Origin: a virus
Taxonomy: Duplodnaviria > Caudoviricetes
Strand: one strand, 5' to 3'
Length of the DNA: 63,986 bases
IMG/VR virus record: IMGVR_UViG_3300043392_000024
Span: 1 to 63,986 of that record
Shown: piece by piece, positions 34,126-34,244 of the stretch
Layout of the letters: each line of letters starts with the position of its first letter
Numbering within the stretch: position 1 is the stretch's first letter
Made by a program: the position numbers and the translations under genes
The notes under the pieces: model-generated
What the model saw: the letters and a program-made list of their open reading frames with translations, nothing else
What the model was told of the DNA's origin: nothing
Database searches by the model: none

Positions 34126-34244
34126 TAGTTGTGTCAGGATTCGAACCTGCAAGCCACCGTGACAATGACCATGTAGTGATTACGCTCACTCACCTCTGGA
34201 TGCGAATCCATTACCATGGTGTATACCAATTCCACTACACAACT
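34126..34244 (-). ncRNA. tRNA-Leu-like RNA C (119 nt; branched 41-nt insert in place of the anticodon loop)
   Basis: AGTTGTG/CACAACT acceptor plus A discriminator, GTG-GAATTGGTATA-CAC D-arm, long variable arm GTCATTG/CGGTGGC, CAGG-TTCGAAT-CCTG T-arm. Confidence 0.7.

What the first reader, a model, noticed from the sequence alone, without database searches (positions are those of the whole stretch)
34126..34244. Unit C keeps tRNA-Leu identity features while lacking an anticodon
Seen: A discriminator, GTGGAATTGGTATACAC D-arm, a 7-bp variable arm, and an anticodon stem (CATG/CATG) opening into two hairpins (TGGAT-TCGC-ATCCA and AGTGA-GCGTAA-TCACT). Known: bacterial LeuRS relies on A73 and tertiary shape rather than the anticodon. 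Inference: this RNA could be leucylated and bind EF-Tu without decoding, or donate amino acids outside the ribosome.
Basis: partly seen in the sequence, partly recalled or inferred. Interest (0 to 1): 0.7.

Follow-up and report, generated by a model that had tools for sequence, protein, structure and literature searches.

The report
Anticodon-less tRNA-shaped phage RNA gene
This freshwater phage carries a gene for a small RNA that keeps the body of a leucine tRNA but has a conserved two-hairpin fold where the codon-reading loop should be, one member of a large phage RNA family that I found in no catalogue or paper searched and whose job is still unknown.

Summary
Window 34244..34126 (minus strand) is a tRNA-shaped RNA gene. 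It has a 7-bp acceptor stem, a leucine-type D arm, a long variable arm, a canonical T arm and A73. The anticodon stem opens into a three-way junction with two hairpins instead of a 7-nt loop.

Default ARAGORN and Rfam at gathering score call nothing. The Rfam tRNA model scores 28.7 bits against a cut-off of 29.

Seven further distinct homologues exist in viral and metagenome contigs. They carry three different acceptor stems and keep the whole fold by compensatory changes: 95.1% of 264 cells paired, 14 of 33 pairs changed on both sides, 0 of 500 shuffles as good.

It is not a pseudogene and is unlikely to be an intron-bearing tRNA. It sits in a polycistronic array: leader, unit C, trailer, repeated 18-mer, unit B, unit A. 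The same array recurs in distantly related phages.

Units on one shared scaffold carry more than 100 unrelated middles.

Closest known are T5 RNA1/RNA2 and T4 rnaC/rnaD, whose function is unknown.

All leucine identity features defined in E. coli are present, so charging is plausible, but it is untested.

This scan had noted the same kind of RNA before, on other DNA.

The parts
34256..34332 (-). Conserved non-coding leader upstream of unit C. It contains a hairpin whose stem covaries (CCAAGC/GCTTGG here, TTATC/GATAA elsewhere) around a conserved loop.
   Evidence: 86% identical over 78 nt to L077. The same leader precedes tRNA-shaped units with different middles in 11 viral stretches. The upstream genes differ.
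34126..34244 (-). Unit C: anticodon-less tRNA-shaped RNA gene (119 nt). Acceptor stem 34244-34238 with 34133-34127, and A73 at 34126.
34219..34235 (-). D arm of the leucine type (3-bp stem, loop with A14, A15, G18, G19).
   Evidence: Sequence. D-stem pair 11:25 covaries UA/CG. Compared with T4 and T5 tRNA-Leu.
34170..34218 (-). Replacement of the anticodon arm. The closing stem (34218-34214 with 34174-34170) opens into hairpin 1 (34210-34197, T-loop-like) and hairpin 2 (34190-34175, loop GCGTAA).
   Evidence: The closing stem and hairpin 2 each have 2 pairs changed on both sides. Hairpin 1 varies on one side only.
34153..34169 (-). Long variable arm (5 pairs supported, 7 possible).
   Evidence: 2 pairs changed on both sides.
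34134..34150 (-). T arm, GCAGG-TTCGAAT-CCTGA, with a G-A at pair 49:65.
34017..34125 (-). Trailer module directly after unit C. It starts with a second perfect T-arm-like hairpin (34120-34106).
   Evidence: 97.6% identical in L004. Found at 95% identity or more in short contigs of two RNA libraries from two studies, there behind other tRNA-shaped units. No Rfam match.
34006..34023 (-). Punctuation 18-mer GACAGCTGGAAAGACAGC, followed by 5 nt and then the next unit.
   Evidence: Exact copies in 19 of 201 fetched loci. L001 among them is the window's own region, and L004/L066 are one contig. Up to 3 copies per locus. It lies directly before the next tRNA-shaped unit.
33837..34000 (-). Unit B: tRNA-shaped RNA with a tetraloop hairpin in place of the anticodon arm and a domain of about 95 nt in the variable-arm position. 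Discriminator T.
   Evidence: Sequence. 91.8% identical over 158 nt in L184, L187, L188, L197 and L198, with compensatory acceptor changes.
33731..33834 (-). Unit A: acceptor stem and T arm around an aberrant middle.
   Evidence: Weak hit of model R1 (14.9 bits, E 0.23). 78.6% identical over 56 nt in L184, L188 and L198, and 79.6% over 54 nt in L187.

Best explanation
Unit C is a gene for a stable, non-decoding, tRNA-shaped RNA.

Shown:
- It has a complete tRNA upper body (acceptor stem, D arm, T arm, elbow nucleotides, long variable arm).
- A conserved three-way junction with two hairpins stands where the anticodon loop should be.
- The whole fold is kept by compensatory changes.
- It is one cistron of a conserved non-coding array.

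Inferred:
- The array is transcribed as one precursor.
- The host's tRNA-maturation enzymes (RNase P at position 1, a 3' nuclease after A73, the CCA-adding enzyme) cut the unit out. This also frees the neighbouring trailer RNA.
- The tRNA body gives the RNA stability and access to tRNA-binding proteins.
- The inserted domain is the working part and binds an unknown host or phage partner.

The body may also be leucylated. That stays open.
For: - Fold kept by covariation in 8 distinct homologues with three different acceptor stems.
- The same middle domain sits on two other acceptor stems (L101, L195, L196, L199, L200 and L184).
- The tRNA core nucleotides are invariant.
- Unit C is 99.2% identical in L004 over 119 nt, while the flank is 94.9%.
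- In the L184 group the array (leader, C, B, A in the same order) is kept at 79-92% nucleotide identity for units A and B. A neighbouring protein is only 40% identical.
- More than 120 viral stretches carry one shared scaffold, with 131 distinct middles falling into 112 clusters. Only 16 small MAG contigs among 185,579 species' genomes have it.
- These units lie among ordinary phage tRNA genes. They share their 3' context: C after the discriminator in 138 of 142 units, and most of 212 ordinary tRNAs end the same way.
- The window has no ordinary tRNA gene at all, so the array is not there to supply codons.
Against: - There is no direct evidence that unit C is transcribed, processed or stable.
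- The two RNA-library contigs cover only the trailer and the last 4 nt of the unit, and such libraries can hold DNA.
- Folding energy is not better than shuffles.
- No partner protein is linked: the most widespread neighbouring protein cluster is in 16 of the roughly 137 sources clustered (136 fetched loci plus the window), and no tRNA enzyme was found among the 40 window proteins scanned.
- The 8 homologues represent about four lineages, so relatedness inflates the shuffle test. The slid control does not suffer from this.
- Model R1 also matches ordinary tRNAs, so it shows tRNA likeness, not family specificity.
Confidence: 0.6

Rival explanations
1. The RNA receives CCA, is charged with leucine by the host LeuRS and acts as a charged but non-decoding tRNA. 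It would bind EF-Tu, titrate LeuRS or leucine, or give leucine to a non-ribosomal acceptor.
For: - All leucine identity elements defined in E. coli are kept (review passages).
- The scaffold is of the type whose synthetase ignores the anticodon, as with tmRNA and alanine.
- Of the 22 of 147 shared-scaffold units that default ARAGORN reads as tRNAs, 8 are read as Leu. This fits descent from a real phage tRNA-Leu.
Against: - Nothing was tested.
- CCA is not encoded.
- The identity rules come from E. coli and the host is unknown.
- Pair 49:65 is G-A.
- Units B and A of the same array have T or C discriminators in the window or in L184.
- Some units on the shared scaffold carry a non-Leu D arm.
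- No acceptor enzyme is encoded nearby.
Confidence: 0.2
2. It is a real tRNA gene interrupted by a 34-nt intron, as proposed for the 'enigmatic introns' of Lak megaphage tRNAs, and it is spliced to a decoding tRNA.
For: ARAGORN with its intron option reads tRNA-Ile(AAT) with a 34-nt intron after position 37. Lak phage tRNA genes with conserved inserts are in print (PMC6784885, passages read).
Against: - The nucleotides that this model makes positions 32 and 38 form a covarying pair (UA in 2, GC in 4 of 8).
- The implied anticodon AAT would sit in a leucine-type body.
- The 'intron' itself is conserved in structure, with compensatory changes.
- On the shared scaffold ARAGORN's intron option gives scattered anticodons and intron positions.
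- No known ribozyme or intron family matches at E up to 10.
- No insert-free allele of this scaffold was found: 1 other contig has the scaffold, and it has the insert.
Confidence: 0.05
3. The tRNA shape serves only as a cutting signal (tRNA punctuation) that releases the neighbouring trailer RNAs. The unit itself has no function after cleavage.
For: Units alternate with conserved trailers and a repeated 18-mer. The trailer of unit C recurs behind other tRNA-shaped units, one of them a bare acceptor/T-arm minihelix.
Against: A cutting signal needs no conserved insert. Yet the insert of unit C keeps loops, junction sequences and covarying stems across lineages, and the D arm and elbow are kept as well.
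Confidence: 0.1
4. It is a decaying tRNA pseudogene or a chance tRNA-like sequence.
For: The score lies just under Rfam's tRNA cut-off. The folding energy is unremarkable. The region is an insertion-deletion hot spot of 40 to 648 nt between conserved flanks.
Against: Covariation in every helix except hairpin 1. Invariant core nucleotides. Higher conservation than the neighbouring genes.
Confidence: 0.03

Closest known systems
Phage T5 RNA1 and RNA2 (NC_005859 30501-30644 and 32959-33083, annotated 'tRNA-like stable RNA with unknown functions')
   Same: They are RNAs of 125-144 nt in a phage tRNA region, with an acceptor-like stem, a T arm and a large middle in place of the anticodon arm. RNA1 carries a leucine-type D loop. 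RNA2 has a second T-arm-like hairpin inside its middle, as do unit C's hairpin 1 and trailer. Rfam tRNA scores RNA1 at 24 bits. R1 scores part of RNA2 at 24.8 bits.
   Different: There is no sequence similarity to unit C. The acceptor stems are less regular. The neighbouring T5 tRNA-Leu gene read here encodes CCA, whereas unit C does not. Their function is also unknown, so they explain nothing about mechanism.
Phage T4 rnaC and rnaD (species 1 and 2 RNAs) at the end of the T4 tRNA cluster
   Same: They are small stable RNAs co-located with tRNA genes and a homing endonuclease gene. rnaC has a canonical T arm and a tRNA-like 3' part (R1 24.2 bits). Their roles are still called unknown in the passages read of PMC3014915 and PMC9697503.
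   Different: There is no sequence similarity. The 5' half of rnaC is not a regular acceptor/D-arm. No family of exchangeable middles is described for them.
Lak megaphage tRNA genes with 'enigmatic introns' (Devoto et al. 2019, PMC6784885)
   Same: They are phage tRNA-shaped genes with conserved inserts that bacterial tRNA finders miss (passages read).
   Different: There the insert is read as an intron in an otherwise decodable tRNA. Here the pair 31:71 and the conserved insert structure argue against a splice that restores an anticodon loop.
tmRNA
   Same: It has a tRNA-like top half charged by a synthetase that ignores the anticodon, with a large functional insert in place of the anticodon arm.
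   Different: ARAGORN's tmRNA search finds none. Rfam tmRNA matches only 15 nt of unit A's T loop (10.9 bits against 47). Unit C has a full D arm, no reading frame and no pseudoknots, and the insert is only about 41 nt.
YrlA-type bacterial and phage Y RNAs (Rfam RF02553; PMC4201824 seen in a search listing only)
   Same: It is a tRNA-mimicking non-coding RNA found in bacteria and phages.
   Different: No RF02553 match at E up to 10. From recall: in YrlA the RNA ends lie in the Ro-binding stem, not in the acceptor stem, and a Ro (Rsr) gene is nearby. No such gene was found among the 40 window proteins scanned.
Engineered 'tRNA scaffold' for expressing RNA aptamers (PMC3753655, search listing only) and minimal tRNA-Leu substrates (Larkin et al. 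2002, as cited in PMC9976931)
   Same: The design is the same: a tRNA body with the anticodon arm replaced by a foreign structured RNA. The review states that such tRNA-Leu variants are still charged.
   Different: Those are laboratory constructs. This is a natural gene family.

Membership tests
Canonical decoding tRNA (Rfam RF00005 / ARAGORN) | Reaches the curated score or is called by a tRNA finder | tested here: not met
   28.7 bits against a gathering score of 29. Rfam at gathering score finds 0 matches and ARAGORN at default finds 0 genes in the window.
Canonical decoding tRNA (Rfam RF00005 / ARAGORN) | 5-bp anticodon stem closed by a 7-nt loop with U33 and an anticodon | tested here: not met
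   The stem opens into about 41 nt that form two hairpins.
Canonical decoding tRNA (Rfam RF00005 / ARAGORN) | Acceptor stem, D arm, T arm and elbow nucleotides | tested here: met
Intron-bearing tRNA | Removing the insert leaves a regular anticodon loop whose positions 32 and 38 are unpaired, with an anticodon that fits the body | tested here: not met
   Those positions covary as a pair (UA in 2, GC in 4 of 8). The anticodon AAT would sit in a Leu-type body.
Intron-bearing tRNA | Spliced RNA exists | not testable with these tools
   No raw RNA reads covering unit C were available.
tmRNA | tRNA-Ala-like domain plus tag reading frame and pseudoknots | tested here: not met
   ARAGORN -m finds 0. 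Rfam tmRNA scores 10.9 bits against 47 on 15 nt of unit A.
YrlA / Y RNA-like (RF02553) | Match to the family model | tested here: not met
   No match at E up to 10 in 33500-34500.
Phage tRNA-like stable RNAs of tRNA clusters (T5 RNA1/RNA2, T4 rnaC/rnaD): a loose kind, not a sequence family | Phage-encoded RNA of about 100-150 nt with tRNA-like ends and T arm, no anticodon loop, lying in a run of tRNA-type genes | tested here: met
   Unit C is 119 nt and lies in an array of tRNA-shaped units. Relatives lie among ordinary phage tRNA genes. The T5 and T4 records were read.
Phage tRNA-like stable RNAs of tRNA clusters (T5 RNA1/RNA2, T4 rnaC/rnaD): a loose kind, not a sequence family | Accumulates as a stable processed RNA | not testable with these tools
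   Only contig-level RNA data exist, and they cover only the trailer.
Freshwater-phage leucine-type tRNA scaffold RNAs with exchangeable middles (defined here and in earlier notes of this scan) | Matches a model built from other members | tested here: met
   R1 gives 35.3 bits, E 1.9e-06, full length. The model also matches ordinary tRNAs, so this shows likeness of the body only.
Freshwater-phage leucine-type tRNA scaffold RNAs with exchangeable middles (defined here and in earlier notes of this scan) | The same middle domain occurs on the family's common scaffold | tested here: met
   L101, L195, L196, L199 and L200 carry unit C's middle between the AGTCAGG and CCTGACT (CCTGATT in L196) ends.
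Freshwater-phage leucine-type tRNA scaffold RNAs with exchangeable middles (defined here and in earlier notes of this scan) | Same array grammar: leader, trailer, 18-mer | tested here: met
Substrate of bacterial LeuRS (leucine identity) | A73, A15-U48, G18G19, A20a and the D/T-loop contacts (E. coli rules, PMC9976931) | tested here: met
   All are present in unit C. They are present in 7 or 8 of the 8 class members.
Substrate of bacterial LeuRS (leucine identity) | Is actually charged with leucine | not testable with these tools
   This needs biochemistry.

The most novel reading that the evidence does not exclude
Unit C is one cassette of a natural 'tRNA-scaffold display' system of phages. 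A leucine-tRNA body is cut out, CCA-tailed and perhaps charged by the host. It carries exchangeable small structured RNAs. The more than 100 unrelated middles on one scaffold would be a fast-evolving repertoire of RNA decoys or aptamers aimed at host factors such as defence proteins or tRNA-handling enzymes. Cassettes would be swapped between phages by recombination at the constant scaffold, leader and 18-mer.
Probability: 0.2. Interest if true: 0.85.

Novelty: new variant of a known kind. Interest (0 to 1): 0.6.

Why it matters
Phage tRNA-like stable RNAs have been known from T4 and T5 for decades, without any assigned function.

This locus shows that such RNAs are not oddities of two model phages. 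They form a very large, modular, phage-only family with a constant tRNA body and conserved but exchangeable middle domains, arranged in a regular array.

The window's phage has no ordinary tRNA gene. Its array therefore separates the function of the tRNA-shaped RNAs from codon supply.

The unit C class gives a compact target of 119 nt, supported by covariation, for structure probing, charging assays and partner pull-downs. It is also a natural counterpart of the engineered tRNA scaffold.

Genome annotation misses all of these genes, or at best calls them tRNAs with random anticodons.

Tried and rejected
**Searches that found nothing useful**
- Cultured-phage records have no match to the array. 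For a shared-scaffold unit they match only T-arm fragments.
- Exact 3' end of unit C in viral contigs: only the L004/L066 contig.
- Start of the trailer: the same single contig.
- Matches of the array to the rest of the window, looking for antisense targets: only chance-level matches of 10-15 nt.

**Linked protein**
- The most widespread neighbouring protein cluster is in 16 of the roughly 137 sources clustered (136 fetched loci plus the window). The top clusters are DUF932, terminase, a phosphoesterase and T5orf172.
- No tRNA-related enzyme was found among the 40 window proteins scanned.

**Folding and signal scans**
- Single-sequence folds of units A, B, C and the trailer are not better than shuffles, with z from -0.45 to -1.05.
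- RNAalifold preferred pairing the 5' half of hairpin 1 with the T loop. I rejected this because it destroys the invariant T arm and has no change on both sides.
- The sigma-70 promoter and terminator scan is at the shuffle level. Bacteroidota-type promoters are not covered.

**RNA libraries**
- The two RNA runs laid gave no cover on unit C, B or A. This says nothing either way.

**Alternative readings**
- An archaeal-type bulge-helix-bulge intron was rejected by inspection, because the junction is a three-way junction.
- A tRNA 3' half as an integration site was rejected. The 5' half is present too, and only 16 MAG contigs hold the scaffold's 3' end.

**Literature and earlier notes**
- Searches found no description of this family.
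- PMC10690425 (passages read) mentions five tRNA-like candidates, but its supplementary tables could not be opened, so overlap cannot be excluded.
- The place look-up of earlier findings for this genome was empty.

Full report
**What the window is**

The window is a complete 63,986-bp IMG/VR virus genome with direct terminal repeats. Its proteins include a BT4734-like/PriCT primase, a Sak-type annealing protein, a MazG-like pyrophosphatase, a GroEL-like chaperonin and an HNH endonuclease. The primase type fits a Bacteroidota host. By their titles, 7 of the 16 MAG contigs that hold the family's scaffold are Bacteroidota. That is weak support, because such contigs may be mis-binned phage DNA. 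DNA runs labelled freshwater metagenome hold the stretch.

**The observation**

- A perfect 7-bp acceptor stem, then TA.
- A D arm with a 3-bp stem and a loop carrying A14, A15, G18 and G19.
- A stem CATG with CATG that opens into two hairpins.
- A long variable arm.
- A T arm with loop TTCGAAT.
- An A discriminator.

Default ARAGORN finds no tRNA or tmRNA in the whole window. Rfam at gathering score finds nothing. In E-value mode the only relevant match in 33500-34500 is the tRNA model over exactly 34126-34244. It runs end to end at 28.7 bits against a cut-off of 29, with 49 nt in place of 13 model positions. With its intron option ARAGORN reads tRNA-Ile(AAT) with a 34-nt intron. The single-sequence fold is no better than shuffles (z -1.05), so thermodynamics alone proves nothing.

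**Relatives and covariation**

Relatives of the neighbouring exonuclease gave 45 loci. Only one of them, L004, holds unit C; the identity is 98% over 250 nt.

A pattern taken from conserved parts of the middle domain found 7 viral and 5 metagenome stretches. Together with the window they give 8 distinct sequences. They carry three different acceptor stems: AGTTGTG/CACAACT, AGTCAGG/CCTGACT (CCTGATT in L196) and a third in L184.

I laid my structure on their alignment (A4). It consists of the acceptor, D stem, closing stem, hairpin 1, hairpin 2, variable arm and T stem.
- 95.1% of 264 cells form standard pairs. The shuffle mean is 84.4% and 0 of 500 shuffles reach the observed value.
- 14 of 33 pairs have changes on both sides. 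The shuffle mean is 7.0, again 0 of 500.
- Sliding the partners by 1-3 columns gives 36-43% paired and 2-4 such pairs.
- Pairs changed on both sides: acceptor 6 of 7, closing stem 2 of 5, hairpin 2 2 of 5, variable arm 2 of 5, D stem 1 of 3, T stem 1 of 4. Hairpin 1 has none; it shows only an A-U to G-U change.

The loops and junctions (TAAT-K-G, the TCGC region, the G-Y-R-TAA loop, TGTCAYG) are conserved. The 8 sequences stand for about four lineages, so the shuffle figure is inflated by relatedness. The slid control is not.

**Not an intron-bearing tRNA, not a pseudogene**

ARAGORN's intron model needs the bases at 34214 and 34174 to be positions 32 and 38 of an anticodon loop. In the alignment these two columns covary as a pair: U-A in 2 sequences, G-C in 4, unpaired in 2. 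The single difference between the window and L004 inside unit C turns the window's G-A at this position into a U-A pair.

The implied anticodon AAT would sit in a leucine-type body, and the 'intron' itself has conserved structure. No Rfam ribozyme or intron family matches at E up to 10.

Conservation argues against decay. Unit C is 99.2% identical in L004, against 94.9% for the flank.

**The wider family**

The tRNA-shaped units of L003 and L004 share a 25-nt 3' end. It occurs in only 16 small MAG contigs among one genome each of 185,579 species.
- I parsed 147 units, 142 of them distinct, of 69-190 nt.
- Their ends are fixed by the search. Features not fixed by it are also kept: the D arm (about 85-95% per position, with covarying stems), a T before the T stem (121 of 142) and a C after the discriminator (138 of 142).
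- The middles are unrelated: 131 distinct middles fall into 112 similarity clusters.
- Default ARAGORN of the 147 as tRNAs with scattered anticodons. Eight of these are Leu, which fits descent from a real phage tRNA-Leu.
- In six loci Rfam sees only 'tRNA', at 30-48 bits for these units and 56-66 bits for the ordinary tRNA genes among which they lie.
- Ordinary tRNA genes in these loci have the same 3' context: a C, then A/T-rich sequence, and no CCA.
- Inserts also occur in the D loop (L187, L190).
- A covariance model built from 61 such units, without unit C, finds unit C as the best hit in the whole window (35.3 bits, E 1.9e-06). Unit A is a weak second (14.9 bits, E 0.23). The model also matches ordinary T4 and T5 tRNAs, so it proves likeness of the tRNA body only.
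- The specific link to the family is that five homologues carry unit C's middle on the common scaffold.

**The array**

Unit C lies in a slot between conserved flanks that holds 40 nt in L006, 140 nt in L002, 255 nt in L003 and 648 nt here. The order on the minus strand is:
- a conserved leader (34332-34256);
- unit C;
- a trailer (34125-34017) that begins with a second perfect T-arm-like hairpin;
- the 18-mer GACAGCTGGAAAGACAGC (34023-34006);
- unit B (34000-33837), which has a tetraloop in place of the anticodon loop and a domain of about 95 nt in the variable-arm position;
- unit A (33834-33731).

The leader recurs in 11 viral stretches behind three different upstream genes. Each time it is followed by a tRNA-shaped unit with another middle. 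Its hairpin stem covaries. The 18-mer recurs up to three times per locus, directly before the next unit.

The L184 group has the leader and homologues of C, B and A in the same order, with extra units between them. Unit B is 91.8% identical over 158 nt with compensatory acceptor changes. A neighbouring protein is 40% identical.

Contigs of other DNA runs hold B plus A without C, or B in another context. The modules are therefore reshuffled.

**Expression**

Only contig-level data were to be had. Two RNA libraries from two studies each hold one short contig (205 and 159 nt) that covers 34129-34017 at 95% identity or more. In both, the trailer follows another tRNA-shaped 3' end. In one case this is a bare acceptor/T-arm minihelix. 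A small hairpin with a T run follows. Such libraries can contain DNA, so this is a hint that the trailer module is widespread and possibly transcribed, no more. Nothing is known about expression of unit C itself.

**Leucine identity**

A review (PMC9976931, passages read) states the following.
- In E. coli, A73, A15-U48, G18G19, A20a and the D/T-loop contacts specify leucine identity.
- The anticodon and the variable arm do not.
- Variants lacking both arms are still charged.

Unit C has all of these features. In the class they are present in 7 or 8 of 8 members. Its D loop has the form of the annotated T4 and T5 tRNA-Leu genes. Charging is therefore plausible.

It remains untested. CCA is not encoded, the host is unknown, and units B and A do not keep an A discriminator.

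**What it most likely is**

It is most likely a stable, non-decoding, tRNA-shaped RNA cut from a polycistronic precursor by the host's tRNA-maturation enzymes. The tRNA body would provide processing, stability and access to tRNA-binding proteins. The conserved two-hairpin domain would be the working part, and its partner is unknown. I put confidence at about 0.6. The structure, the conservation and the array are shown. Transcription, processing and partner binding are inferred.

**Comparison with what is known**

The closest known things are T5 RNA1 and RNA2 and T4 rnaC and rnaD.
- The T5 RNAs are annotated 'tRNA-like stable RNA with unknown functions'.
- The T4 RNAs' roles are still called unknown in the passages I read.
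- T5 RNA1 has a leucine-type D loop and a large middle. T5 RNA2 has an inner T-arm-like hairpin.
- There is no sequence similarity to unit C.

Lak megaphage tRNA 'introns' may be the same phenomenon read differently.

Rfam 15 has no family for unit C, the trailer, the leader or units A and B. The paper searches found no description. Supplementary tables of PMC10690425 could not be seen and might list related candidates.

Earlier notes of this scan describe the same kind of RNA on other genomes. I reached the family independently before reading them. From them I took the T5, T4 and Lak leads, which I checked myself.

**Verdict**

This is a new variant of a known but functionally unexplained kind. 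Interest 0.6.

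Noticed in passing
window 34017-34125 (-): The trailer module after unit C starts with a perfect T-arm-like hairpin (34120-34106). It recurs at 95% identity or more in short contigs of two RNA libraries, behind other tRNA-shaped units. It has no Rfam match, and its fold is unsolved.
   Followed up: partly
window 34006-34023 (-); also L184, L186, L188, L198 (3 copies each): The exact 18-mer GACAGCTGGAAAGACAGC punctuates the arrays. It lies a few bases before the next tRNA-shaped unit or before a T run. It may be a processing site, a weak terminator or a protein site.
   Followed up: partly
window 33837-34000 (-) and 33731-33834 (-): Units B and A are two further tRNA-shaped RNAs without anticodon loops. 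B has a GTGG tetraloop hairpin and a domain of about 95 nt in the variable-arm position, and its cargo contains CTGATGA. Both have homologues in the L184 group with compensatory acceptor changes.
   Followed up: partly
window 34256-34332 (-); L077, L183-L192: A conserved non-coding leader, with a purine-rich GGGAGG stretch and a covarying hairpin, precedes the first unit of such arrays in at least three phage lineages that have different upstream genes.
   Followed up: partly
L187:12179-12681 and L190:9850-10352: Some family members carry their insert inside the D loop, between AAT and TGGTA, instead of or in addition to the anticodon region.
   Followed up: no
L004:915-1300: In the close relative L004, an ORF that looks like a GIY-YIG homing endonuclease (by eye, not scanned) replaces units B and A right after the 18-mer. 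This echoes segB in the T4 tRNA cluster and hegC in T5.
   Followed up: no
window, whole genome: The phage has no ordinary tRNA gene but keeps three or four tRNA-shaped RNAs. It also encodes a GroEL-like chaperonin (55375-56916) and an 835-aa protein with collagen repeats (60969-63476).
   Followed up: no
RNA run X19: One RNA-library contig shows a bare minihelix, an acceptor stem joined directly to a T arm with no D arm or middle, on the family's common acceptor sequence and immediately before the trailer module.
   Followed up: no
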